Source of the DNA: an uncultured bacterium
GTDB lineage: Bacteria; Patescibacteriota; Minisyncoccia; Phycocordibacterales; GWA1-40-21
DNA length: 64,000 nucleotides
Assembly: GCA_903831595.1 (NCBI GenBank)
Contig: CAIKXY010000005.1
Coordinates: 839-64,838 of the forward strand
Reading direction: 5' to 3'
Part shown: positions 1,793 through 53,765 of the stretch, piece by piece
Position numbering within the stretch: the stretch's first letter is position 1
How the letters are laid out: every line of letters begins with the position of its first letter
Position numbers and translations under genes: made by a program
Notes under the pieces: generated by a model
What the model was told of the DNA's origin: nothing
What the model saw: the letters and a program-made list of their open reading frames with translations, nothing else
Database searches by the model: none

Positions 1793-2359
1793 ATGGGTTT
1801 TGAAAATTATTCACCAAGAGAAGAAGAAATTAGTTTGGCTGAAGATTCTATGACGAAAGAACAAAAAGGTATGGAAAATCAGAGGCAAGCGGATTATGAA
1901 AAGGAGAAAGAGAAGGGAATAAGGGGTGCAAAAAGTTTTAAAGAATTAGTTGATTTTATTGAAAAAATAGATGGGTTACAAGGCTCAGGTAGGTTATACA
2001 AATCAGTCGATTTAATGGGTTCTATTTTAATGGTTAGAGAGGGGAAAGCCGATGTTGCTAGTATTACAAGAGCGGGGGGACTTAGAGAAAAAGTAGTTGA
2101 ATTGCTTGGAAATAAAGAAACAGAAAATATAAAGATTAAAAAAGGACTATCAGGAATAAATAGCATCAATGAATTAAAAGTTTTTTTAAATGAAATGATG
2201 GAGGTTTCTGGTGAAAGAACTGATGATAAGGTGTATAGTGCAAAAAAGTTGATCGGTTATATTGAGCAAGCTGAACTAGGAAGTAAGGGTGACTTAAATG
2301 TAATTCCAAATACAGGTGGATTAAAGGATAAAGTTAAAGAATTATTGAAATACAATTAA
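1793..2359 (+). CDS. Hypothetical charged (Lys/Glu-rich) protein
   Basis: 188-aa ORF followed by an intrinsic terminator. No recognisable motif. Confidence 0.4.
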   Translation: MGFENYSPREEEISLAEDSMTKEQKGMENQRQADYEKEKEKGIRGAKSFKELVDFIEKIDGLQGSGRLYKSVDLMGSILMVREGKADVASITRAGGLREKVVELLGNKETENIKIKKGLSGINSINELKVFLNEMMEVSGERTDDKVYSAKKLIGYIEQAELGSKGDLNVIPNTGGLKDKVKELLKYN

Positions 2360-4301: not shown

Positions 4302-4353
4302 GTTTTGATTATAACAAAAAAGTAGTTATGAAAGAAGTTTGTTTTTAATTTTG

Positions 4354-4759
4354 TGGAGATGGGCGGAATCGAACCGCCGTGCAAATGATTGTTTCAAATA
4401 TTTCTACAAAGTCTAGTTGATTTATTTTACCTTGCGGTAATTTAAGATTATAAACTATAAATTAACAAAACATTTATAATCCGATTCTCTTATTTCATTT
4501 TGTGGCGAGAAAACACAAAATATATTCTGAAATTATTGCACTTCAACACCATCGCTCAGAATCAGTGGGTGAAATGTCGCTTAAGCTAAAGCGTAAGCGA
4601 AAGTAAGGTCTTTGACTCCAAAAAATGGAGAAACAATGCCAGCTACTTTTGATGAAATGTTTTTAGCATTTACATTTTCCTTGGTAGATTTAAGAGTTCA
4701 CAAGGTTGCTCTACTTTGCATACAAGAGACTTGACCAATTGTCTAGGCCGATCATCCCC
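4354..4759 (-). ncRNA. ssrA: tmRNA (transfer-messenger RNA)
   Basis: Reverse strand. 5' GGGGATG... pairs with 3' ...GGCGGTTCGATTCCGCCCATCTCCA (canonical T-arm GGTTCGATTCC and acceptor). An internal frame GCT AAA AAC ATT TCA TCA AAA GTA GCT GGC ATT GTT TCT CCA TTT TTT GGA GTC AAA GAC CTT ACT TTC GCT TAC GCT TTA GCT TAA encodes the tag AKNISSKVAGIVSPFFGVKDLTFAYALA*. It lies immediately downstream of smpB. Confidence 0.65.
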
Positions 4760-4760
4760 A

Positions 4761-5207
4761 TTATTCGTTTTTCAACGTCCTATTAATTTCTCTGTCAGAT
4801 TCACGTTTTTTTATTGTTTCGCGTTTATCTGACTTTCTTTTTCCTTTTGCAAGACCAAGTTCTACCTTAATCTTGTGGCCCATATTATACACTGAAAGTG
4901 CCACTATTGTCAAACCGTTTTGATTTTCTTTTCCTGACAAATATCGAAGTTCTTTTTTAGTAAGTAAAAGTTTTCTATTTCTCCTTTCATCATAATCTTT
5001 TGGGGTATTTTTGGGCTGTAGAGAAGTGACGGATGAACCAATTAAAAAAGCTTCTCCTCCGCGAATAACTACATAAGAACCATCAAGTGTCATTTGCCCA
5101 GCTTTAATTGCTTTCACTTCAAATCCTAGCAGTTCAATACCAGCCGTGATTTTTTCAAGGATTTCATAATTGAAATATGCTTTTCTATTTTCTGCGAATT
5201 TGGACAT
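4761..5207 (-). CDS. smpB: SsrA-binding protein SmpB
   Basis: 148 aa; KAYFNYEILEKITAGIELLGFEVKAIKAG...LLLTKKELRYL... is a typical SmpB. Confidence 0.85.
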   Translation of the reverse strand: MSKFAENRKAYFNYEILEKITAGIELLGFEVKAIKAGQMTLDGSYVVIRGGEAFLIGSSVTSLQPKNTPKDYDERRNRKLLLTKKELRYLSGKENQNGLTIVALSVYNMGHKIKVELGLAKGKRKSDKRETIKKRESDREINRTLKNE

Positions 5208-8799: not shown

Positions 8800-9055
8800 T
8801 ATGGCTCGTACATGTTGTAGCTATAACTTTTGCTTTTCGTGAACTCAAAGCAAAGTTACAGCCCGACCTCCCTCGCTTCGCTCAGTCCGGTCCGTACAGT
8901 GCAAAAGAAAATCACTCCTTAATGAAAGAGTGATTTTCAAATATTTTTATGTAGTCACGAGTTTTCTGCTCGTCGACACTCGCAGAAACTCTCGACCCCG
9001 CCTCATTTGTTCCGCAAGCTTGCGGAACATAATTCCGGCTCGTACATGTATTAGA
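8800..9055 (+). ncRNA. Candidate structured ncRNA, possibly a minimal RNase P RNA (rnpB). Low confidence.
   Basis: ~350 nt with no credible ORF between ftsH and tRNA-Ile. cagTCCGGtccgtACAGtGCA resembles the P4 5' strand (GAAAGTCCGGGCTCCATAGGGCA). ggaACATAAtTCCGGCTCGta resembles the P4 3' strand (ACAGAAcCCGGCTTA). The termini share the tacatgt palindrome and could pair as P1. A perfect 20-nt palindrome gttccgcaagcttgcggaac is internal, and a terminator hairpin follows. Confidence 0.25.
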
Positions 9056-9084
9056 AAACGCGGAGCAGTCCGCGTTTTCTATCA
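9056..9084. terminator. Bidirectional intrinsic terminator
   Basis: aaaacgcggagcagtccgcgtttt: 10-bp perfect stem with a GCAG loop, flanked by T/A runs. Confidence 0.45.
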
Positions 9085-9086
9085 TG

Positions 9087-9160
9087 TACGCCTGCCTGGA
9101 TTCGAACCAGGGACCCCAAAGGTATAAGCTTTGTGCTCTAACCAGCTGAGCTACAGGCGT
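9087..9160 (-). tRNA. tRNA-Ile with anticodon UAU (reads AUA)
   Basis: Reverse strand: ACGCCTG-TA-GCTCAGCTGGTTAGAGC-A-CAAAG-CTTATAC-CTTTG-GGGTC-CCTGGTTCGAATCCAGG-CAGGCGT-A. The cloverleaf folds cleanly with an Ile-type D-loop. Anticodon loop CTTATAC puts TAT at 34-36. Confidence 0.7.
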
Positions 9161-16087: not shown

Positions 16088-16224
16088 TTAATATGCTATA
16101 AATGAATTTACATAATTTCCAAAATTAGATCAAGAGACAATTATAAATTTAATAAAATAATTTGTTTGGTCATATTTTGAATTTTTTTGTATAAGCCCTC
16201 CACAAAAAATCCGATTTCGTTTTC

Positions 16225-16316
16225 TGGCGGAGAGGGCGAGATTCGAACTCGCGGAACCGTTTAACGGGTTCACCTCTTTAGCAAAGAGGTACATTAGACC
16301 ACTCTGACACCTCTCC
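16225..16316 (-). tRNA. tRNA-Ser (anticodon GCU), type II with long variable arm, CCA encoded
   Basis: Reverse strand: GGAGAGG-TG-TCAGAGTGGTCTAATGTA-CCTCT-TTGCTAA-AGAGG-TGAACCCGTTAAACGGTTC-CGCGAGTTCGAATCTCGC-CCTCTCC-G-CCA. Confidence 0.85.
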
Positions 16317-17787: not shown

Positions 17788-20700
17788 ATGCGAGAAAGTT
17801 TTTCAACATCAGAACAATTCTTAAAAAAGCAAGCGAGGCAAGAAATTGAAGAAGGAATTGCCGAGTATTTGGCTTCGCCTAGAAGCAAGAATGGTATGCG
17901 CACCGAACTTGCTGAGACTTTTGAATTAGAAAGATCAGAACAACCACTTAGTCGTGAGGAGGTGGAAAAAGAAATAGAAGGTTTTGTAGGTAGAAATTTA
18001 GAAGTATTACTACCATTATTTCTGTCACAAGAACAGGACAACGACAAATTGATAAAAATTTTTGGTTTGATGAATAAAGAAATAGGATTATTTGGAGCAA
18101 ACTATTATATTCGTGAGAAAGATGGTAAATCAGCTATTTTTATAACTAATGAATATTATCCCGAAGGCACACTAGATGATGTAAGTCCAAGTGATTTGTT
18201 CGCTCTCGCCTATGCGAAAGAAAATATTCGAGTGGATTCAAAAAGAGAAACAGGAATATATGGTGGAATGACTCCCCATCGATATTATCTCAAGTCAAAG
18301 AAGCGCTACCTTTGTGTAAATGACTTTGGTATGCGGGTTTGGAATGAGGAAGAGGAAAAGATGGATCAGGGCGATATTACCAATGTCACGCCATTTATTC
18401 AAACAGTAAAACAACAAATAGATAGGATGGTAGAAAATCTTCAGGTTGTTTCAAATTTGGATTATGAAAAAATTCAAAAGGAATTACAAGAAGCCGCAAA
18501 ACAAACAGCGGGGGTGCAATACCTTGATGATGAACAACAACAGGTAGTTGATAGACGATTGCAAGAACAGTTAGTGCAGAATCTTGCTCGTCGTTTTGCG
18601 GAAAATAAAAAGGATATGGACTTAGTGCTTGGTGCAGTGCCAGCTCGAAAAGTTAGGGATCATTTGCATTTTAATTTTGATAAAATCGCAAAAAAATACG
18701 GTTTTGTTGGTAATGATCCAGAGAAAGACTATCAATCATTTGATCAAAATTCACCAAGACTAAATAAATTACTTAGAGAACCAACGGAACAGGAAAGGGC
18801 AGGTGTTTCTTTTGATTTTTTTTACTCTGATTTTTATCAGAAGCCGGTAATTGTTGCGGGACATCTAGATAAAGACTCGGTTATTTCAGAAGCATGTTCT
18901 GGGGTAAAAGAAGTTCTTGCTAGAAGAGCAGTAGAAAATGATCCAAAAACAAAAGAATTATTTGACCGTGCTCGTTGCAATAGGGGTGGTGGAAGCCCAT
19001 ATTTCTATCCCGACCATCAAATCTATGACTTTATTAAAACTGTTGGTATAGAACGTGCTCAACAAATATTAGAATCAGATGATAGGAATATCTCCGAACA
19101 GATGGCTGGTTTTGAAATGCTTAAAGCCATGAGATATGATATTTCTAAATTTGAACCTGATCAACTTAAAAAACAGCTTCATCAGGCGTACACCCTTAAA
19201 CGTTCCGGTCTGTTGCGTTATTTGGAAGAAAGAAACAAAACTAAAATAGAGCAAGGACTAGAAAAACTTGGAGCGAAAGCCGTTGGTAAACACTGGCTCG
19301 AGCTTATAGGGGTGCGAGGTGCACGAGATCAATTTCGAGAAGGTAAACGAATGTATTGGTTGGGGAAACAAGTTTGGATGCACAATCCAAATCGCACCGA
19401 AGAAGATCGATTTTATAAAAACGATTATTATGTAAAATGGGATAGATATGATTTGACGAAAGCCGATGTTTCCGAAGAAAAATTTAATGAATATATAGAA
19501 GAACAAAAAAGCATCATTGTTGCTCTTCTAGGGCAAGGCTCTGAAGGTGTTTATCACTATGGAGAACAAAAATATCAAGGGAAATCAGCGACACTTGGTC
19601 TGATTATCAAAGCACTCGAACAGGGGAATGATATTCGCGGTGTGGCTTTGGCACACGACAAACAACGCTATCTTGAGGGTATAATCAGCGGAAAAGTTAA
19701 AAACGATCTTGCATTTGCTACAGAAGATTGGCCAGAGGATTGGCATAATGTAGTCTCACCAGAAGAAATAAAACTTTATTACGAATATGCAAATGATTAT
19801 ATTTTGATTGACCCGAATGGTATTACAAAATATGCAGCATGGCGCGCAACCAGCGAAGGAAAAGAGTGGAATAAAGTTTTCAAAGAAACTCCAAAAGAAA
19901 AAAATGATTTAGATTTTCGTATTTGTCTGGGAACTCAAACAGAAGAAGTGCGTGGATGGTACAAGGGTGCCGCGGAACATGTTGGTGGTGAAGCAATGAA
20001 AAATTACCTTTTGCGTTTCAATACCACTCACGGAGCAGATGGGCGCACAGCAAATTGGCATGACGTACTTTTGTGGTGTTCTAATATTCAAAAACTTGAA
20101 GCTGGAGATGCAAGGTCAATTCTGTTGAGTATTGAAACAATGAATGACAATCAGGAGTTTATCAATCTCTTGCCTAGATACAGCAAAGATCGCGACTCGC
20201 TAAAAAACAGTGGACCAGTTCAGTCATTGCGTGAACTTAAAAAACGTATTTTGGCGATTGAATCAAATGTCGATCTCTCTAAATTTTCACCAGAACTTAT
20301 TTCAATTACTTCGGCGCCGGGTTTTAATCTTGTGGAACTAGAATCAATGTATAAAAGAGATGGTTTTCAAGATTTAATCGATGGTAAATTAGATAAAGAA
20401 CAGCCATTTCAACCATATTCAAGAACTTTTGCTGGGCGAGAGCTCACCGAAGCATTGCACGATGGACTAGGATCACAGAAACAAAAAATTAGAGGAACAG
20501 CAAAAGATCCAAAAGGGTTGTTTTTCGCTTTGAATCAGTTAGTAAAAGGCAGAGAACTTGGCGGTAAAAATATGACCGCGCTTGATTTGCTCAACTATGT
20601 TCCAATAGATTTAGAGGGGGATGTCATCCGTTTATTGCGTGAACAGCAAGTTGATATTGGTCCAATTGTTGAAGCAAAAATTCATGCGAAATCTGATCCA

Positions 20701-21660
20701 GAAGGATGGGTGTGCGGTAATTATACAGATTGTTGTATGCCGTTTGGTTCTAGCAATAATAATGATTACATGTTTAATCGTTCCACTCAATACTTTACGA
20801 TCAAATATAACGGCAGAATTGTTGCTCAATCAGTGGTAGTTGATTCTCGTGATCAAGAAAAGAATGAGGATGTAGTTGTATTGGACAATATTGAAGTTGC
20901 CAATAACTATAAAAATCTTTCACCATTGCTCTCAAATGTGTATCAAACATTTTGGACGGAATACACGAGTAAGGCGGTAAAAGTTGGCGCTGGCTATTCT
21001 GACTTAATTCCGCCTGGTGGAAAACTAGAACAAAATCACTATCGAGCGAAAACTAACCTTGGCTATTCCGACGCTAGAGGCTCGCAGATTTATGATCTTC
21101 CTAAACGACGAGGTGTTGAGTCAATGGATAAGGTGGTAACATTCGCAAATCTTTCTGAGAAAGATGTAGAACTTATTGCAGAGATGGAGTCAGAAGCTTA
21201 TCCTGAGGGTATGGCTCAAGGCAAGGAGCATATCATGGGTATATTACAAAAACAAAGGGATTTGGAAGTACCAGGAGCCGCTTCAAGTTTCTTGGTTCGC
21301 CAAGGGCGAGAGCCGGCTGGATATCTTTTAGTTTTGCCGGAAGAATCAGAGGTGAAAAGCGGTGAAAGAGTCGCTCATATCTATGACATGGTGGTCATGC
21401 CAAAGTTTAGAGGATCTTTGATTGCGCGCAAAATGATGGAAAGAATCATTGATGTCGCTTCTGCCTACGGGGTGGCCATTGAAGCGGAAGCACGAGCGAG
21501 TACATCTTACGCTTTGCTGATGAACGAACGGATAAGAAAATGGTTTGAGAGCAAGGGGCTTTACCTTACAAAAAACGAAAAGCTTCCGCAGTATCTTGGT
21601 GGCGAAGATTTTTACTTTGTTCGCTTTGAAAATAGGCAGAATCCAGAAGCGACAATATAG
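17788..21660 (+). CDS. Giant (1290 aa) cytoplasmic protein with C-terminal GNAT-type N-acetyltransferase module(s); cargo of the repeat-flanked insertion
   Basis: Single uninterrupted ORF. C-terminal ~170 aa (...IYDMVVMPKFRGSLIARKMMERIIDVASAYGVAIEAEA...) is a classic GNAT motif A/B. A second GNAT-like block lies upstream (VVLDNIEVANNYKNLSPLL...). The N-terminal ~1000 aa have no motif I recognise. GC visibly higher than the flanks. Confidence 0.6.
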   Translation: MRESFSTSEQFLKKQARQEIEEGIAEYLASPRSKNGMRTELAETFELERSEQPLSREEVEKEIEGFVGRNLEVLLPLFLSQEQDNDKLIKIFGLMNKEIGLFGANYYIREKDGKSAIFITNEYYPEGTLDDVSPSDLFALAYAKENIRVDSKRETGIYGGMTPHRYYLKSKKRYLCVNDFGMRVWNEEEEKMDQGDITNVTPFIQTVKQQIDRMVENLQVVSNLDYEKIQKELQEAAKQTAGVQYLDDEQQQVVDRRLQEQLVQNLARRFAENKKDMDLVLGAVPARKVRDHLHFNFDKIAKKYGFVGNDPEKDYQSFDQNSPRLNKLLREPTEQERAGVSFDFFYSDFYQKPVIVAGHLDKDSVISEACSGVKEVLARRAVENDPKTKELFDRARCNRGGGSPYFYPDHQIYDFIKTVGIERAQQILESDDRNISEQMAGFEMLKAMRYDISKFEPDQLKKQLHQAYTLKRSGLLRYLEERNKTKIEQGLEKLGAKAVGKHWLELIGVRGARDQFREGKRMYWLGKQVWMHNPNRTEEDRFYKNDYYVKWDRYDLTKADVSEEKFNEYIEEQKSIIVALLGQGSEGVYHYGEQKYQGKSATLGLIIKALEQGNDIRGVALAHDKQRYLEGIISGKVKNDLAFATEDWPEDWHNVVSPEEIKLYYEYANDYILIDPNGITKYAAWRATSEGKEWNKVFKETPKEKNDLDFRICLGTQTEEVRGWYKGAAEHVGGEAMKNYLLRFNTTHGADGRTANWHDVLLWCSNIQKLEAGDARSILLSIETMNDNQEFINLLPRYSKDRDSLKNSGPVQSLRELKKRILAIESNVDLSKFSPELISITSAPGFNLVELESMYKRDGFQDLIDGKLDKEQPFQPYSRTFAGRELTEALHDGLGSQKQKIRGTAKDPKGLFFALNQLVKGRELGGKNMTALDLLNYVPIDLEGDVIRLLREQQVDIGPIVEAKIHAKSDPEGWVCGNYTDCCMPFGSSNNNDYMFNRSTQYFTIKYNGRIVAQSVVVDSRDQEKNEDVVVLDNIEVANNYKNLSPLLSNVYQTFWTEYTSKAVKVGAGYSDLIPPGGKLEQNHYRAKTNLGYSDARGSQIYDLPKRRGVESMDKVVTFANLSEKDVELIAEMESEAYPEGMAQGKEHIMGILQKQRDLEVPGAASSFLVRQGREPAGYLLVLPEESEVKSGERVAHIYDMVVMPKFRGSLIARKMMERIIDVASAYGVAIEAEARASTSYALLMNERIRKWFESKGLYLTKNEKLPQYLGGEDFYFVRFENRQNPEATI

Positions 21661-43467: not shown

Positions 43468-43541
43468 GCGGTTGTAGCTCAGTTGGTTAGAGCGCTCCCC
43501 TGTCACGGGAGAGGTCACCGGTTCGAATCCGGCCAGCCGCG
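43468..43541 (+). tRNA. tRNA-Asp (anticodon GUC)
   Basis: GCGGTTG-TA-GCTCAGTTGGTTAGAGC-G-CTCCC-CTGTCAC-GGGAG-AGGTC-ACCGGTTCGAATCCGGC-CAGCCGC-G. Confidence 0.85.
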
Positions 43542-43545
43542 CAAT

Positions 43546-43572
43546 TAAAAAACTCCCACCGGGAGTTTTTAA
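43546..43572 (+). terminator. Intrinsic terminator after tRNA-Asp
   Basis: aaaaactcccaccgggagttttt. Confidence 0.5.
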
Positions 43573-43573
43573 T

Positions 43574-43760
43574 TACGTGACTGGAACGAGTGATGTTATC
43601 ACTCGTGTCCGGGTTCGAAGCCCCATTGAGTCAATTTTATAAATGCAATGAAATAAAATAGCCAATGGGGGTACTGACCCTTTAAGGGTCGAATATCCGG
43701 CCAGTTTAATTTAAAAAACTTATTGAGTCGAAGGTGGAGAAACTCCGGCCAGCCGATTTA
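43574..43760 (+). pseudogene. Cluster of degenerate tRNA-like fragments (pseudo-tRNAs / partial duplicates of the tRNA-Asp 3' end)
   Basis: 43576-43634 folds as acceptor-like TGACTGG/ATTGAGTCA plus hairpin CGAGTG-ATGTTAT-CACTCG (anticodon-like GTT) plus a weak T-arm (GGGTTCGAAGCCCC), but has no D-arm. 43686-43704 (GGGTCGAATATCCGGCCAG) and 43741-43754 (TCCGGCCAGCCG) repeat the T-arm/acceptor 3' half of tRNA-Asp (CCGGTTCGAATCCGGCCAGCCGCG). Confidence 0.35.
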
Positions 43761-43784
43761 CATAATTCATGATATAATTTTTTC

Positions 43785-44193
43785 TATGAAAGGTGACAGA
43801 GGAACAGCATTAGTTTGTAAGGAAAATAAATTTTTAATGATTTTTCGTTGCAAAAATAATAGTGAGTACTATGTTTTACCTGGCGGTCATGTTGAAGATG
43901 GCGAGACATCAGAAGAAGCGACGATTCGTGAGTTATTTGAAGAGACATCAATTATCGCTGAAGTTGATAAAAAAATAATTACTTTTAAAGATGCAAATGG
44001 AAGAACACATCAAATTTTTTTATGTAAATACATTTCGGGCACTCCTAAAATGTCAGATAATAGTGTTGAAGTAGAAAGGGCCTCGGAAGTAAATATCTAC
44101 AAGCCCATGTGGGTTGATAAATACGAAATAAAAAGTTTTAGTATTTGGCCTGAAGAAACAAAGAAGTATTTAATAGATTACTTTAATAAATAG
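43785..44193 (+). CDS. Nudix hydrolase (start re-called to the internal ATG)
   Basis: Nudix box GGHVEDGETSEEATIRELFEETSI. The track ORF 43723..44193 begins inside the tRNA-fragment region with a non-ATG start. Confidence 0.75.
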
Positions 44194-45398: not shown

Positions 45399-45471
45399 GC
45401 CATTGTAGCTCAGTCGGTAGAGCACGTCATTGGTAATGACGAGGTCACCGGTTCGATCCCGGTCAATGGCT
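45399..45471 (+). tRNA. tRNA-Thr (anticodon GGU)
   Basis: GCCATTG-TA-GCTCAGTCGGTAGAGC-A-CGTCA-TTGGTAA-TGACG-AGGTC-ACCGGTTCGATCCCGGT-CAATGGC-T. Confidence 0.85.
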
Positions 45472-45608
45472 CACGAGCATAGCGAGTGGGCACATTGAGC
45501 GAGCCAACTGCTTGGCTCGCGACAGGGAGCGAAAGATCTTTCCGTACCGAACGCAGTGAGGTGGAAAGATACTCGCCACGATAGGTGGAGATCCCGGTCA
45601 ATGGCTCA
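45472..45608 (+). repeat. 114-nt GC-rich structured insert bracketed by a 20-nt direct repeat of the tRNA-Thr(GGU) 3' end
   Basis: GATCCCGGTCAATGGCTCAC at 45455-45474 (inside the tRNA) recurs at 45589-45608. The intervening GC-rich segment contains hairpins GCGAGCCAActgcTTGGCTCGC and the palindrome GGAAAGATCTTTCC. The track ORF 45410..45622(-) is spurious. Confidence 0.4.
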
Positions 45609-45617
45609 CAAGCTTTT

Positions 45618-45690
45618 GCCAAAGTAGCTCAGTTGGTAGAGCGGCGGTATCGTAAACCGCAGGTCGCCAGTTCGATCCTGGCCTTTGGCT
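45618..45690 (+). tRNA. tRNA-Thr (anticodon CGU)
   Basis: GCCAAAG-TA-GCTCAGTTGGTAGAGC-G-GCGGT-ATCGTAA-ACCGC-AGGTC-GCCAGTTCGATCCTGGC-CTTTGGC-T. Confidence 0.85.
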
Positions 45691-45691
45691 C

Positions 45692-46567
45692 ATGAAGGAG
45701 GATATAAATAAAAAAATTCAAGAATTGGAAAAAGAGATGTTGTCTCCAGATTTTTGGTCTGACAAAAATCACGCTCAAACGGTTTTAAAACAAATTGCCA
45801 AATTGAAAGATGAACTTTTTGGGAAAGATAAATACAATAATGGTGACGCAATTATGACAATTTATTCTGGCGCTGGTGGAGATGATGCTGAAGATTTTTC
45901 AAGAATTCTACTTGAAATGTATATAAAATTTTTTGCAAAAAGAAATTGGAGCTCAACAGTTTTGGATGAAGTTGAAAACGACCATGGAGGTTATAGAAAC
46001 ATTACGCTAGAAATTTCTGGGAAAAATGCATATGGAGATTTGAAAGGGGAAGCTGGGGTACATCGTCTGGTAAGACTTTCTCCATTTAATGCAAAAAGTT
46101 TAAGACAAACTTCTTTTTCTATGGTTGAGGTTTCGCCAAAAATTGAAAAGGATTCAAGTATTGAATTATCTGAAAAAGATTTGAAATTTGAAATGTCAAA
46201 AGCCGGTGGTCCTGGTGGGCAAAATGTAAATAAAAGAGAGACAGCCGTAAAAGTAATTCATATTCCAACAGGTATTTCTGTCCGTGCGACGAGTGAAAGA
46301 ACCCAACAAAAAAATAAAGAAAAGGCCATGCAGATTTTAAAGGGTAAACTTTACGCACATTATGAAAAAGAAAATGCCGATAAAGAAAAAGGTTTGTTTA
46401 TAAGCAAGTCAACATCAATTGAATGGGGAAATCAGATTCGTTCTTATGTTTTTCACCCTTATAAAATGATTAAAGACCACAGAACTGATGCTGAGACAAA
46501 TAATATTGATAAAGTTTTAAATGGTGAGCTCGATGAATTTATTGAGGCAGAGAAAAGTTTAAATTAG
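45692..46567 (+). CDS. prfB: Peptide chain release factor 2, compact form without N-terminal extension or programmed frameshift site
   Basis: SPF tripeptide (RLSPFNA), GGQ motif SKAGGPGGQNVNKRETAVKVIHIPTGI; 291 aa. Starts 2 nt after the tRNA-Thr gene. Confidence 0.85.
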   Translation: MKEDINKKIQELEKEMLSPDFWSDKNHAQTVLKQIAKLKDELFGKDKYNNGDAIMTIYSGAGGDDAEDFSRILLEMYIKFFAKRNWSSTVLDEVENDHGGYRNITLEISGKNAYGDLKGEAGVHRLVRLSPFNAKSLRQTSFSMVEVSPKIEKDSSIELSEKDLKFEMSKAGGPGGQNVNKRETAVKVIHIPTGISVRATSERTQQKNKEKAMQILKGKLYAHYEKENADKEKGLFISKSTSIEWGNQIRSYVFHPYKMIKDHRTDAETNNIDKVLNGELDEFIEAEKSLN

Positions 46568-48275: not shown

Positions 48276-48362
48276 TTTAAAATATAAATAATAATTTTAA
48301 GTTTCAGTATTTAAATATTTTTAGCTTGAATAATTACTATTTTTCAAGTATTCTTTATTTAT

Positions 48363-48436
48363 TGCGGGATCGTCTAATGGTAGGACATATGCCTCTGGAG
48401 CATGGAATCTTGGTTCGAGCCCAAGTCCCGCAGCCA
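48363..48436 (+). tRNA. tRNA-Gln (anticodon CUG), CCA encoded
   Basis: TGCGGGA-TC-GTCTAATGGTAGGAC-A-TATGC-CTCTGGA-GCATG-GAAT-CTTGGTTCGAGCCCAAG-TCCCGCA-G-CCA. The track ORF 48326..48700 is spurious. Confidence 0.8.
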
Positions 48437-48713
48437 GCTCGAGCGACGCTCAAGTCGCGTCGTCGCAACGTATTTTTAGCTCTGCATAGAGCGATGGGAC
48501 TTGGAATAGAACCGACGACGAAAGTTAGCCGCAAATTTCCGCTCGTTAGACTCCAAGTCTGGCAGCAAAAGGTAGTTATCTCGCTTGAAGTAAGTCACTT
48601 ATTATTACTACTTAATATTGTTAATACAACAGAAAGTGTGCGAAGTAGCCGAACAATTTACTTGTTTTTTCTTTATAAAGAAGTTATTATTTGTTTTTAA
48701 ATTATCCAAATAT

Positions 48714-49148
48714 ATGGACCTAACAATTTCAGTAAAAGATTCTATGCTAAATGTCAGAGTTGTCATACTTGCTCGCACAAAAAATGGCTATTTGTTTTCA
48801 AAACATCCAGAGGGTTATTTATATTTTATTGGTGGAAGAATAAAGATAAATGAAAATTCAGAAGAAGCAGCAAAAAGAGAATTTTTAGAAGAAACAGGCA
48901 TTAATATTAGCAAAGTTAATTTTAAAACCACACTCGAGAATTTTTTTGTTTTTGAGAATAATAAGAAATTTCATGAAATATGTTTTTTTTATGAAGTACT
49001 TGGTGAACTAAAGGTAAATGTTAATAAATTTAATATTGTAGAGTGTCCTATTTCGGAATTTGAAAAAACTGATATTAGGCCAAAAATTATGAAAGATTAT
49101 ATTTTGTCAAACGATAATAAACCTCATATCATCTATAAAGATTACTAA
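48714..49148 (+). CDS. Nudix hydrolase (start re-called to MDLTISVK...)
   Basis: Nudix box GGRIKINENSEEAAKREFLEETGI. Confidence 0.7.
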   Translation: MDLTISVKDSMLNVRVVILARTKNGYLFSKHPEGYLYFIGGRIKINENSEEAAKREFLEETGINISKVNFKTTLENFFVFENNKKFHEICFFYEVLGELKVNVNKFNIVECPISEFEKTDIRPKIMKDYILSNDNKPHIIYKDY

Positions 49149-53258: not shown

Positions 53259-53765
53259 ATGGAAATAAAATCAACTTACACTAGTAGCGATGGTAGAAAA
53301 ATTGACTATATTTATTATGAAGGCGTTGCTGCTACAGAAGATTTAGAAAATAAAAAACTAAATGTGGTCCAGATGTTTTGTTTTTATGGTGACAAAATGG
53401 TTTTAGTTTATGAAAAAAAGGGAAATAGATGGACTCCACCAGGAGGCTCAATTGAAGCAGGGGAAAAATACGAAGAAGCAGTTGTACGTGAAATAAAAGA
53501 AGAAACAAATATGAAGGTTTTATATCAGGAACTTATCGGATTTTGTGATTTTTATGAACCAGCTGGAATTACAAGGACAACTCGTTCGTTTTGTATCGTT
53601 GAACCATATGGCCCATTTGTTTCTGACCCAGATGGAGATATTGCAGAAATAAAATTTATTGACCCAAAGGATTATAAGCAATATTTTGATTGGAAGGAAA
53701 TAGGTGACAGAATTGTAAAAAAAGCAGTTGAGTTGAATAATAAAAATAATTTAATAAATATTTAA
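53259..53765 (+). CDS. Nudix hydrolase
   Basis: PGGSIEAGEKYEEAVVREIKEETNM Nudix box; 168 aa. Confidence 0.7.
   Translation: MEIKSTYTSSDGRKIDYIYYEGVAATEDLENKKLNVVQMFCFYGDKMVLVYEKKGNRWTPPGGSIEAGEKYEEAVVREIKEETNMKVLYQELIGFCDFYEPAGITRTTRSFCIVEPYGPFVSDPDGDIAEIKFIDPKDYKQYFDWKEIGDRIVKKAVELNNKNNLINI

What the first reader, a model, noticed from the sequence alone, without database searches (positions are those of the whole stretch)
45455..45608. 20-nt direct repeat of the tRNA-Thr(GGU) 3' end bracketing a 114-nt GC-rich structured insert
GATCCCGGTCAATGGCTCAC (the last 17 nt of the tRNA plus 3 flanking) is repeated exactly 134 nt downstream. The intervening 114 nt are GC-rich, contain a perfect 9-bp hairpin (GCGAGCCAA/TTGGCTCGC) and the 14-nt palindrome GGAAAGATCTTTCC, and are followed directly by the next tRNA. 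This is an attL-insert-attR geometry with a miniature insert. It could be a remnant of an excised or deleted integrative element, a tiny non-autonomous mobile element, or a processed spacer ncRNA co-transcribed with the tRNAs.
Basis: seen in the sequence. Interest (0 to 1): 0.55.

Follow-up and report, generated by a model that had tools for sequence, protein, structure and literature searches.

The report
Miniature structured element in tRNA gene ends
The repeat and its GC-rich insert are one copy of an apparently undescribed, widespread family of 120-200-base, protein-less, highly folded elements that sit in the 3' end of bacterial tRNA genes and carry both a spare copy and an antisense copy of that tRNA end.

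Summary
An exact 20-nt repeat (45455-45474, 45590-45609) brackets a 115-nt insert with GC 0.58 in a genome of about 0.28.

It is not a one-off scar. The 24-nt hairpin core recurs in at least 120 metagenome contigs and at least 120 species genomes: CPR/Patescibacteria, Burkholderiales, Gammaproteobacteria, Elusimicrobia, Chlamydiae, Verrucomicrobia. It almost always lies 0-60 nt behind a tRNA gene, of 39 different anticodons.

Each unit contains:
- a copy of the tRNA from T-loop position 56/57 to its 3' end;
- a trailer hairpin;
- A', antisense to the acceptor 3' strand;
- a 9-bp hairpin H;
- T', antisense to the T-stem and T-loop;
- covarying hairpins P3 and P4.

A second copy of the tRNA 3' end (DR2) follows each unit.

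A' and T' track whichever tRNA is adjacent. The tRNA-sense strand is the folded one. A relative has an empty site, and tandem arrays occur. No gene, Rfam family, phage or plasmid is associated, and five literature searches found no description.

Best reading (about 0.5): a non-autonomous, site-specific insertion element of tRNA T-loops that acts as a folded single strand and is mobilised in trans. Main rival: a processed or cis-acting tRNA-trailer RNA. The window holds a second member behind tRNA-Asp.

The parts
45399..45472 (+). tRNA-Thr(GGU). Its last 17-18 nt (from T-loop G57) are repeat copy 1.
   Evidence: ARAGORN; Rfam tRNA 71.9 bits.
45455..45474 (+). DR1: the tRNA from T-loop G57 to its 3' end, plus CAC. 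Inferred to be the element-borne replacement copy.
   Evidence: Exact 20-mer found twice, with no shuffle reaching two matches. Family-wide, the repeat starts at position 56/57.
45474..45486 (+). Trailer mini-hairpin CGAGCAUAGCGAG. It caps the DR1/A' helix and takes the place that an intrinsic-terminator-like hairpin occupies in 37 of 103 other units.
45486..45497 (+). A' (GUGGGCACAUUG): antisense to the acceptor 3' strand plus trailer (45464-45474). One G.U pair and one bulged A.
   Evidence: Fold. Family-wide, A' is about 72% Watson-Crick to the adjacent tRNA.
45499..45520 (+). Hairpin H: GCGAGCCAA-CUGC-UUGGCUCGC, preceded by GA and followed by G.
   Evidence: At least 120 metagenome and at least 120 genome loci carry it. 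All 9 pairs covary across the variants. CM R1 gives 53.1 bits, but this sequence is in the training set.
45521..45533 (+). T' (GACAGGGAGCGAA): antisense to T-loop plus T-stem 3' strand (tRNA 54-66, window 45452-45464). 11 of 13 are Watson-Crick.
   Evidence: Direct reading. Family-wide pairing is 87-100% per position at 54-62. T' is found downstream of 191 of 349 tRNAs against 21 in the upstream control.
45536..45570 (+). P3: stem AUCUUUCC/GGAAAGAU, with an apex carrying the CGAACGCAGUGAG tandem-G.A mini-hairpin.
   Evidence: RNAalifold: 8 pairs, 7 of them (all but 57-93) with double compensatory changes.
45576..45588 (+). P4: CCAC-GAUAG-GUGG hairpin, one nt upstream of DR2.
   Evidence: The stem covaries across alignment A1 (CGAC/GUCG, CGGC/GCCG, GCUA/UAGC, UUCUC/GAGAA...). 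The loop (G)GUA(G) is conserved (read by eye).
45590..45609 (+). DR2: second copy of tRNA positions 57-73 plus CAC. Inferred to be the displaced original 3' end.
   Evidence: In the orthologues DR2 drifts (L056, L072, L243) while T' stays complementary to the tRNA.
45618..45691 (+). tRNA-Thr(CGU), the downstream neighbour. No terminator-like site lies between the two tRNAs.
43543..43755 (+). Second family member, behind tRNA-Asp (43468-43542). Parts: terminator 43547-43570, A' 43575-43584, variant hairpin ACGAGUGAU-GUU-AUCACUCGU 43586-43606, T' 43607-43619, P3 43620-43671, P4 43676-43690, degenerate DR2 43693-43704, and a 12-nt repeat 43744-43755.
   Evidence: CM R1 gives 29 bits, E = 4e-6, but this sequence is in the training set.

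Best explanation
The 135-nt unit (45455-45589) is a member of a family of small, protein-less, site-specific insertion elements of bacterial tRNA genes.

What is shown:
- Each unit begins with a copy of the tRNA from T-loop position 56/57 to the 3' end. This copy now completes the tRNA gene.
- Next comes its own trailer hairpin, which often looks like a terminator.
- Next comes an antisense copy of that same tRNA segment. A conserved 9-bp hairpin H splits it into A' and T'.
- A folded domain (P3, P4) follows.
- A second copy of the tRNA 3' end, DR2, lies just behind the unit.
- The tRNA-sense strand is the one that folds.
- A' and T' match whichever tRNA is adjacent.
- Units occur in tandem, and an orthologous site in a relative is empty.

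What is inferred:
- The element moves as a folded single strand, probably DNA and possibly RNA.
- In that strand the tRNA-end copy pairs with A'/T'. This presents a duplex, target-like site with H as a side branch.
- T' also reaches the host-side T54-T55, so it reads across the insertion point.
- A trans-acting enzyme exchanges or joins strands within the T-loop (55|56 to 56|57). The enzyme is not identified; candidates are a tyrosine recombinase acting as on attC or CTX-phage attP, or an HUH/Y1 transposase as for IS200/IS605-type elements.
- The element's tRNA end replaces the host's, so the tRNA stays intact.
For: - Family size and host range: the H core occurs in at least 120 metagenome contigs and at least 120 species genomes. 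The tRNA-adjacent copies in named genomes are CPR 41, Betaproteobacteria 12, Elusimicrobia 7, Gammaproteobacteria 4, Chlamydiae 4 and Verrucomicrobia 2.
- tRNA linkage: 178 of 247 hairpins face a tRNA 3' end, mostly within 60 nt, covering 39 anticodons.
- Repeat boundaries: the repeat starts at position 56/57 in 68 of 93 units and ends at the tRNA 3' end.
- Antisense segment: T' pairs with tRNA 54-62 at 87-100% per position across 101 units with different T-arms. It is found behind 191 of 349 tRNAs against 21 in the upstream control.
- Which copy T' follows: where DR2 and the tRNA differ, T' matches the tRNA 40 times and DR2 twice.
- Empty site: L244/L245 have the same tRNA-Thr/tRNA-Thr/prfB order without the element. 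Orthologous filled sites are L056, L072 and L243.
- Arrays: tandem arrays occur, and one mixes two subfamilies behind a single tRNA (L185).
- Same body, different targets: var domains at least 88% identical sit behind different tRNAs, with A'/T' matched to each.
- Covariation: H has 9 of 9 pairs with double changes, and none of 500 shuffles reached the observed value on any measure. P3 has 7 of 8 pairs with double changes.
- Strand: the plus strand folds better in 89 of 100 units (p = 3e-16). G.U pairs number 274 against 170, and all six G.U pairs in H are plus-sense.
- DNA-like features: hairpin loops are dominated by c(GNA)g triloops (46) with few GNRA (9) and no UNCG. Also, 37 of 103 units have a terminator-like hairpin plus T-run before A'. 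Both favour a DNA-level role.
Against: - No recombinase, transposase or reverse transcriptase is encoded in or recurrently next to the units, nor among 40 of the 66 window ORFs tested. The catalyst is therefore purely hypothetical.
- No free, circular or cargo-carrying form was seen.
- The family is absent from 2.9 million viral contigs and from the phage and plasmid collections.
- The Thr copy is orthologously retained in at least four lineages whose RF2 proteins are only 85-91% identical, and var types follow host phylum. Movement is therefore rare, or the element is domesticated.
- DR2 is better conserved than the neighbouring spacer in the orthologues. That is more than a neutral scar would show.
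- The var domain has elaborate conserved internal loops with tandem G.A pairs. These are more typical of a functional RNA or RNP than of a simple recombination site.
- In the window nothing terminator-like separates the element from the flanking tRNAs, so here it is probably transcribed.
Confidence: 0.5

Rival explanations
1. It is a functional RNA module of tRNA transcripts: a structured 3'-trailer or spacer RNA made from the tRNA promoter.

Either A'/T' pair with the second tRNA-end copy (DR2) to form a tRNA-like acceptor/T helix. In that case the tRNA-processing enzymes (RNase P, RNase Z, exonucleases) would cut out a stable small RNA.

Or A'/T' compete with the tRNA's own 5' strands for its 3' half. 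In that case they would control tRNA maturation.

Under this reading the repeats are functional parts of the RNA, not insertion scars.
For: - The element is always co-oriented with, and immediately behind, a tRNA.
- In the window it lies between two tRNAs with no terminator-like site.
- It is GC-rich in an AT-rich genome.
- Plus-sense G.U pairs and covarying helices are present.
- Junction and loop nucleotides are conserved.
- The MFE of the whole stretch nests the element as an insertion in the T-loop, with the tRNA 5' strands paired to DR2.
- The copy is retained in orthologues, and DR2 is conserved above spacer level.
- Many tRNAs in one genome carry one; in this window Thr and Asp clearly do, and Ile and Gln show partial features.
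Against: - 37 of 103 units have a terminator-like hairpin plus T-run between the tRNA and A'.
- DR2 changes are not compensated in T' (40 against 2).
- Loops are GNA triloops rather than GNRA/UNCG.
- No Rfam family matches.
- This reading does not by itself explain the empty site, the arrays of different subfamilies behind one tRNA, or the exact duplication of the tRNA end.
- It is not exclusive of mobility.
Confidence: 0.27
2. It is the guide-RNA part of an RNA-guided system encoded elsewhere in the genome.

The var domain (and H) would be a protein-binding scaffold. The adjoining tRNA-derived segment would be the guide: either DR2 directly 3' of the scaffold, as in omega-RNAs of IS200/IS605 elements, or the split A'/T' pair flanking a hairpin, as in bridge-RNA loops. 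The guide would direct a nuclease or recombinase to tRNA T-loop DNA.
For: - DR2 (about 20 nt) abuts the structured scaffold exactly where an omega-RNA guide would lie.
- The repeat boundary is fixed 3' of a conserved short motif (TTC).
- A'/T' track the target.
- T' spans the insertion point, including the host-side T54-T55, which pair in 100-101 of 101 units.
- Tandem-G.A internal loops suggest protein binding.
- The comparison with omega-RNA and bridge RNA rests on my own knowledge of those systems.
Against: - No TnpB, IscB or IS110-type gene is adjacent in any of about 240 loci.
- No Rfam omega-RNA-type family matches.
- A' and T' both pair with the same strand contiguously, unlike bridge-RNA loops.
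- The guide would match the cell's own essential tRNA genes.
Confidence: 0.12
3. It is a one-off scar: the remnant of a large prophage or island that integrated at tRNA-Thr and was almost entirely deleted. Alternatively, it is a chance or slippage duplication of the tRNA end.
For: The attL/attR-like geometry. Repeats from the T-loop to the tRNA 3' end are typical of integrase att sites (own knowledge).
Against: - Hundreds of homologous units of the same small size occur across phyla, with conserved and covarying architecture.
- No distant second repeat or cargo was found in 169 cases.
- The internal antisense copy of the target is unexplained by simple deletion.
Confidence: 0.02

Closest known systems
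tRNA-gene-targeting integrative elements (prophages, ICEs, genomic islands with tyrosine integrases, 'T-loop' sublocation class)
   Same: - A direct repeat runs from the T-loop to the tRNA 3' end.
- The element supplies a replacement 3' end, so the tRNA stays intact.
- The displaced native end lies downstream.
- Tandem arrays form at one tRNA.
- Sites are filled in some relatives and empty in others.
The class description is from my own knowledge.
   Different: - Units are only 120-200 nt, with no integrase or cargo and no large relatives.
- The family is absent from the viral, phage and plasmid collections.
- It carries a split antisense copy of the att segment.
- It has a conserved, covarying single-strand fold.
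Folded single-stranded DNA recombination sites: integron attC sites and the CTX-phage attP(+) hairpin
   Same: - An imperfect inverted repeat folds in one specific strand into a duplex that mimics the target site.
- It has a variable terminal hairpin and extra-helical features.
- After integration both arms lie at one end of the insert.
- Arrays of units occur.
The attC and CTX mechanisms are from my own knowledge.
   Different: - The target is a tRNA T-loop, not attI or dif.
- There is no GTTRRRY/RYYYAAC core.
- No IntI gene is nearby.
- A large extra structured domain (P3/P4 or longer) is present.
- The side branch is a conserved 9-bp hairpin rather than single extra-helical bases.
Non-autonomous hairpin elements moved in trans as single strands: IS200/IS605-derived PATEs and REP/REPIN elements with RAYT
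   Same: - They are small, protein-less, GC-rich and hairpin-dense.
- They are strand-specific.
- They persist for a long time vertically, with multiple copies per genome.
- They recognise the target by base pairing between a segment next to a hairpin and the cleavage site.
- They insert 3' of a short motif without a classical target duplication.
The mechanisms are from my own knowledge.
   Different: - Known guides are 4-5 nt; here complementarity is about 12 plus about 8 nt.
- Those families have no known tRNA specificity and do not carry the target gene's 3' end.
- No Y1 transposase was identified here.
Transposon-end guide RNAs (omega-RNA of TnpB/IscB; IS110 bridge RNA)
   Same: A structured scaffold lies directly next to a target-derived segment of about 20 nt, and guide segments flank a hairpin.
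   Different: - No effector gene is adjacent.
- No Rfam match was found.
- Both antisense arms read one strand.
- The target is an essential host gene.

Membership tests
Any Rfam 15 RNA family (including hammerhead, hairpin, twister, pistol, hatchet and HDV ribozymes, omega-RNA/HEARO, SRP, 6S, YrlA) | A covariance-model match at or near the gathering score | tested here: not met
   The window region was scanned at E up to 10. A further 26 related loci were scanned at E up to 0.1 or 0.05. Only tRNA and tRNA-derived matches appeared, and nothing matched in the element.
tRNA-targeting integrative element (tyrosine-integrase att sites) | Direct repeats consisting of the tRNA segment from the anticodon loop or T-loop to the 3' end | tested here: met
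   The repeat starts at position 56/57 in 68 of 93 units and ends at the tRNA 3' end within 2 nt in most. In the window it is 45455-45474 and 45590-45609.
tRNA-targeting integrative element (tyrosine-integrase att sites) | An integrase gene and cargo lie between the repeats (kilobase-sized element) | tested here: not met
   Units are 120-200 nt. No distant second repeat was found in 169 cases. No recurrent neighbouring protein family was found. One XerC/D-like cluster occurs in 5 of about 240 loci and looks syntenic with tRNA-Arg.
tRNA-targeting integrative element (tyrosine-integrase att sites) | Presence/absence polymorphism at the same tRNA in relatives | tested here: met
   Filled: the window, L056, L072 and L243. 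Empty: L244/L245, which have the same gene order.
Integron attC / CTX-type folded ssDNA site | An imperfect inverted repeat that folds in one preferred strand, conserved in structure rather than sequence | tested here: met
   The DR1/A'-T' helix and H fold on the plus strand. The plus strand is more stable in 89 of 100 units. G.U pairs are plus-sense only in H. H covaries at 9 of 9 pairs.
Integron attC / CTX-type folded ssDNA site | The conserved core GTTRRRY/RYYYAAC (attC) or a dif-like core, and an IntI or Xer target | tested here: not met
   The core here is the T-loop, GTTCGAA or GTTCGAT. The fourth base is C, not a purine. The target is a tRNA gene.
IS200/IS605-type non-autonomous element (PATE) / REPIN | A Y1 (HUH) transposase or RAYT gene in the same genome, and subterminal hairpins it recognises | not tested
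   Only 40 of the 66 window ORFs were scanned. None is a transposase. Whole genomes were not available.
IS200/IS605-type non-autonomous element (PATE) / REPIN | Insertion at a fixed short motif, strand-specific, without a target-site duplication made by the transposase | tested here: inconclusive
   The junction is fixed after TT(C) of the T-loop, and the strand is fixed. The repeat ends at the tRNA end, as expected if the element carries it. The mechanism itself is unobserved.
Retron ncRNA | Flanking inverted repeats a1/a2 that enclose msr-msd, next to a reverse-transcriptase gene | tested here: not met
   No reverse-transcriptase gene is adjacent. The inverted repeat encloses only the trailer hairpin.
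New family defined here (tRNA-end element with split antisense arms) | The order: tRNA, trailer hairpin, A', GA, 9-bp hairpin, G, T' (antisense to 54-65), P3/P4 domain, repeat of tRNA 56/57 to the 3' end | tested here: met
   All parts are present in the window copy. CM R1 gives 53.1 bits, though the window copy is a training member. It aligns with 14 other short-subtype units.

The most novel reading that the evidence does not exclude
This would be a new class of nucleic-acid-guided, protein-less mobile element. Its split antisense arms (A' and T', flanking hairpin H) would act as a re-targetable guide that reads the T-loop and acceptor end of a chosen tRNA gene. Insertion would be carried out either by a still-unknown trans-acting enzyme family shared by CPR, PVC, Elusimicrobia and Proteobacteria, or by the folded element itself acting as a ribozyme or DNA-structure catalyst.
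Probability: 0.2. Interest if true: 0.95.

Novelty: new variant of a known kind. Interest (0 to 1): 0.8.

Why it matters
If this is right, many uncultured bacteria carry a compact element that has been overlooked. The hosts include the Candidate Phyla Radiation, Chlamydiae, Elusimicrobia and Burkholderiales. In this window at least two of eight tRNA genes carry a clear copy.

The element rewrites the 3' end of essential tRNA genes, and its target specificity appears to be written in about 20 nt of antisense sequence. That has three consequences:
- It makes a new site-specific insertion chemistry testable, whether a single-strand recombination site or a guide-directed one.
- It would explain a class of GC-rich 'orphan' intergenic regions in AT-rich genomes.
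- It matters for tRNA gene annotation and for att-site and genomic-island prediction, which would score these repeats as island boundaries.

If it is instead a processed RNA, it is a new widespread tRNA-linked ncRNA class.

Tried and rejected
- Rfam at permissive thresholds, on the window region and 26 related loci: no family matched.
- Hammerhead or hairpin-ribozyme reading of the three-way junction: the junction has only GA and G, with no CUGAUGA/GAAA core, and there was no Rfam hit.
- The closing helix GCGAGU/ACUCGC predicted for the insert alone: it is not conserved in the orthologues L072 and L017, so it was dropped.
- A large integrative element with a distant second repeat: none found.
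- Recurrent neighbouring genes: only housekeeping clusters were seen. A four-helix-bundle ORF and a XerC/D-like ORF recur only with particular tRNA-Arg loci, which is synteny.
- Phage or plasmid origin: no hits.
- The exact tRNA T-arm/acceptor 22-mer in 185,579 species genomes: 0 hits, so the first genome scan was uninformative.
- Literature searches by sequence and by descriptors (one search failed on syntax): nothing describing such elements.
- Retron, H/ACA-like pocket, K-turn, tRNA-mimic for aminoacylation, and archaeal-type BHB intron: all considered from memory. None fits the anatomy. There is no reverse transcriptase, no unpaired target pocket, a 1-nt rather than 3-nt bulge, no T-loop in the mimic and no bulge-helix-bulge.
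- 'Templated rewriting' of the guides: the near-identical var domains behind different tRNAs can also be explained by strong constraint on var plus a few adaptive changes in T'. This was left open.
Full report
**1. The observation**

The window carries tRNA-Thr(GGU) at 45399-45472 and tRNA-Thr(CGU) at 45618-45691 (Rfam tRNA 71.9 and 66.6 bits). The 20-mer GATCCCGGTCAATGGCTCAC occurs exactly twice in the 64 kb, at 45455-45474 and 45590-45609. No dinucleotide shuffle reached two matches.

- The spacing is 135 nt.
- The insert is 115 nt (45475-45589).
- The next tRNA begins 8 nt after the second copy.

The repeat runs from T-loop G57 to the discriminator plus CAC. The insert has GC 0.53-0.59, against 0.16-0.30 around it. 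It folds better than shuffles: z = -2.7 alone, and -5.2 together with the tRNA and second repeat.

The 9-bp hairpin is real (45499-45520). The '14-nt palindrome' is really a 12-nt GAAAGATCTTTC, and it is not the pairing that comparative data support.

**2. It is one copy of a large family**

The hairpin 24-mer has no other copy in the window and none in 2.9 million viral contigs.

Of 247 hairpins, 178 face the 3' end of a tRNA gene, mostly 0-60 nt away. These tRNAs have 39 different anticodons. Many of the remaining hairpins lie at contig ends or have odd loops and are probably chance palindromes.

Named hosts of tRNA-adjacent copies:

| Host group | Copies |
|---|---|
| CPR/Patescibacteria | 41 |
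| Betaproteobacteria/Burkholderiales | 12 |
| Elusimicrobia | 7 |
| Gammaproteobacteria | 4 |
| Chlamydiae | 4 |
| Verrucomicrobia | 2 |
| unclassified | 12 |

The window organism is a Paceibacterota-like CPR bacterium, judging from RF2 homologues.

**3. Anatomy**

Reading 5' to 3' on the tRNA strand, each locus contains:
1. The tRNA.
2. A trailer. It is either an intrinsic-terminator-like hairpin with a T-run (37 of 103 units) or a small CGARCGNAGYGAG-type hairpin, as in the window.
3. A', complementary to the acceptor 3' strand and trailer.
4. The dinucleotide GA.
5. Hairpin H (9 bp, 4-nt loop, most often CUGC).
6. A single G.
7. T', complementary to the T-stem 3' strand and the whole T-loop.
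8. AAG.
9. A structured 'var' domain.
10. A direct repeat of the tRNA 3' part (DR2).

Boundaries and sizes:
- The repeat starts at tRNA position 56 in 56 of 93 units, and at 57 in 12.
- It ends at the tRNA 3' end within 2 nt in most single units. Longer repeats turn out to be tandem arrays with a diverged second unit.
- Unit length is mostly 120-200 nt.

Pairing of T' with the adjacent tRNA is 87-100% per position for 54-62 across 101 non-redundant units with many different T-arms. In about 11% of units, positions 57/58 are opposed by GA, giving tandem G.A pairs.

In a scan of all 349 tRNAs in the fetched loci, 191 have such a T' within 170 nt downstream. Only 21 do in the upstream control.

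The window copy is a short subtype. Its var domain is P3 (45536-45570) plus P4 (45576-45588).

**4. Structure is selected, on the tRNA-sense strand**

- In 15 short-subtype units, RNAalifold recovers H and P3. Seven of the 8 P3 pairs show double compensatory changes. For example, the window has AUCUUUCC/GGAAAGAU where L072 has GCUUUUCC/GGAAAAGC.
- P4 covaries by eye (CCAC/GUGG, CGAC/GUCG, GCUA/UAGC, UUCUC/GAGAA...), with a conserved (G)GUA(G) loop.
- H is not invariant. Behind other tRNAs in the same loci, the same position holds 9-bp hairpins of different sequence, such as GCAAGCCAA/UUGGCUUGC, GCCCCUCAA/UUGAGGGGC, GCAGAUGAA/UUCAUCUGC, and the window's own Asp copy ACGAGUGAU/AUCACUCGU.
- On 21 H variants, 96.8% of cells pair, against 75.8% in shuffles. 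All 9 pairs have double changes, and none of 500 shuffles reached the observed value on any measure.
- A caveat on that test: the variants were chosen for having a hairpin. Twenty-seven of 36 non-canonical sites had one.
- All six G.U pairs in H are G.U on the plus strand, so they would be A.C mismatches on the minus strand.
- The plus strand folds more stably in 89 of 100 units (mean -87.3 against -79.5 kcal/mol, p = 3e-16) and has more G.U pairs (274 against 170).

**5. Evidence that it is an insertion**

- Orthologous loci (tRNA-Thr(GGU), element, tRNA-Thr(CGU), prfB) exist in L056, L072 and L243.
- A relative with RF2 85% identical (L244/L245) has the same two tRNAs and prfB, with only a 19-nt spacer between the tRNAs.
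- Tandem arrays occur (L023, L102, L211). L185 carries an H-less unit and then a canonical-H unit behind a single tRNA-Leu.
- Var domains at least 88% identical sit behind different tRNAs, with A'/T' matched to each. Examples are Ser/Thr, Val/Tyr/Met and Pro/Ser. L230 has two units in one Burkholderiales contig that differ by 1 nt in var.
- Var types follow host phylum.
- Where DR2 differs from the tRNA, T' pairs with the tRNA base 40 times and with the DR2 base twice.
- T' also pairs with T54-T55, which lie outside the repeat.

Together with the repeat ending at the tRNA 3' end, this says the unit is: tRNA 56/57-to-3'-end copy, trailer, A', H, T', var. DR2 is then the displaced native end. 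This is an inference.

**6. What is not there**

- No protein family recurs next to the units. The best cluster covers 12 of about 240 loci, and all clusters are housekeeping genes.
- A XerC/D-like gene recurs in 5 loci, 4 of them at tRNA-Arg(UCG), which looks like synteny.
- No distant second repeat, and therefore no cargo-bearing version, was found.
- No integrase, transposase or reverse transcriptase is among 40 of the 66 window ORFs.
- No Rfam family matches.
- There are no hits in phage or plasmid collections.
- Five literature searches returned no description.

**7. DNA or RNA?**

Points favouring DNA:
- Of 168 predicted hairpin loops in var domains, 46 are GNA triloops, typically c(GNA)g (for example GCGAAGC). 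Only 9 are GNRA and none is UNCG. Shuffled sequences gave no GNA triloops.
- From established knowledge, d(GCGAAGC)-type mini-hairpins are exceptionally stable in DNA, whereas structured RNAs favour GNRA and UNCG loops.
- A third of the units have a terminator-like hairpin before A'.

Points favouring RNA:
- The window copy lies between two tRNAs with no terminator-like site.
- The var domain has conserved internal loops with tandem G.A pairs.
- DR2 is more conserved than the neighbouring spacer in the four orthologues.

I cannot decide this in silico.

**8. Mechanism**

My best-supported model (confidence about 0.5) is a non-autonomous site-specific insertion element.
- Shown: the anatomy, the strand bias, the target-matching, the polymorphism and the arrays.
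- Inferred: the single strand folds so that the tRNA-end copy pairs with A'/T', giving a target-like duplex with H as a side branch. A trans-acting enzyme exchanges strands in the T-loop at 55|56 to 56|57. The integrated order (both arms at the left end, separated by a short loop) is what integration of a folded single-stranded circle would give. I base that on the known CTX-phage and attC mechanisms.
- Alternative catalyst: an IS200/IS605-like 'guide next to a hairpin' recognition of a TTC motif.

Rivals:
- A processed or cis-acting tRNA-trailer RNA (0.27).
- The guide-RNA half of a trans-encoded RNA-guided system (0.12).
- A one-off scar (0.02).

**9. Comparison and novelty**

The repeat geometry meets the defining feature of tRNA-targeting integrative elements, but the integrase and cargo feature is tested and not met. 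The one-strand fold meets the structural feature of attC/CTX sites, but their core motifs are not met. Membership in IS200/IS605-type families could not be tested, because whole genomes were not available.

I therefore file it as a new variant of a known kind: a miniature, structured, tRNA-end-replacing element. The open possibility is that the split antisense arms are a true programmable guide.

**10. Other copies in the window**

- tRNA-Asp (43468-43542) is followed by a full member with a different H sequence (43543-43755).
- tRNA-Ile(-) and tRNA-Gln are followed by GC-rich structured segments with partial features of the family.

Noticed in passing
window 43543-43755 (+), behind tRNA-Asp 43468-43542: A second full member of the same element family, with a different 9-bp hairpin (ACGAGTGAT-GTT-ATCACTCGT, 43586-43606). 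It also has a bidirectional terminator-like trailer, T' GTCCGGGTTCGAA, P3, P4, a degenerate repeat at 43693-43704 and a 12-nt repeat of the tRNA end at 43744-43755.
   Followed up: yes
window 8803-9085 (-), behind tRNA-Ile(UAU) 9086-9160: A GC-rich structured stretch. It has a hairpin with the family's CUGC loop (AAACGCGGA-CUGC-UCCGCGUUU, 9056-9077; CM 12.5 bits, E = 0.3). It has a var-like segment GAGCCGGAAUU..GAGGCGGGGUCGAG..CUCGUGAC (8954-9041). It has a 13-nt direct repeat ACATGTACGAGCC at 9037-9049 and 8803-8815. It is probably a diverged relative lacking a clear T'.
   Followed up: partly
window 48437-48560 (+), behind tRNA-Gln(CUG) 48363-48436: A GC-rich trailer containing GGGACTTGG (within 48493-48513). 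This is antisense to the tRNA's T-stem 3' strand and acceptor start, and it follows a small hairpin. It may be another, more diverged tRNA-end element. The overlapping ORF 48326-48697 has no Pfam match.
   Followed up: partly
window about 16190-16224 (-), behind tRNA-Ser(GCU) 16225-16316: A short segment, TGTGGAGGGC, resembles the complement of the tRNA acceptor end (GCCCTCTCCGCCA). No hairpin or repeat is present. It is possibly a remnant.
   Followed up: no
L243 1157-1361: In a relative, the orthologous tRNA-Thr(GGU) is split in its anticodon loop by an insertion of about 200 nt. The insertion has a weak group I intron match (RF00028, 23 bits, E = 0.002, below gathering score). So this one tRNA gene carries both an intron and the 3'-end element. 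ARAGORN does not call this tRNA.
   Followed up: partly
L131, L172, L185, L201, L039 (for example L172 about 2060-2222, minus strand): An 'H-less' sister subfamily. It has a continuous antisense copy of the tRNA 3' half, followed by CGGGAAGGGGGTCGGGGAAAC..GTTTCCCCGTGGCGGA.. and then a repeat of the tRNA end. It is also absent from Rfam. In L185 it sits in tandem with a canonical-H unit.
   Followed up: partly
window 4353-4759 (-) and 4764-5207 (-): tmRNA (tag AKNISSKVAGIVSPFFGVKDLTFAYALA) lies directly next to smpB. No tRNA-end element or repeat lies behind the tmRNA gene.
   Followed up: partly
window 45692-46564 (+): The release-factor-2 gene starts immediately after tRNA-Thr(CGU), with the ATG overlapping the tRNA's last bases. 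It is a single 291-aa ORF (PCRF + RF-1 domains in its homologues) with no programmed frameshift. ftsE/ftsX-like genes follow.
   Followed up: partly
window 17788-21657 (+): A 1290-aa ORF whose only Pfam match is a C-terminal GNAT acetyltransferase domain. Three separate NUDIX-domain ORFs are also present (43723-44190, 48618-49145, 53259-53762).
   Followed up: no
L032 2900-3271 and 7 other loci: A small ORF that looks, by eye, like a four-helix-bundle '23S rRNA intervening-sequence protein' recurs about 200 nt from elements at tRNA-Arg(CCG) loci. It lies upstream of the tRNA, not inside the element, so it is probably synteny.
   Followed up: partly
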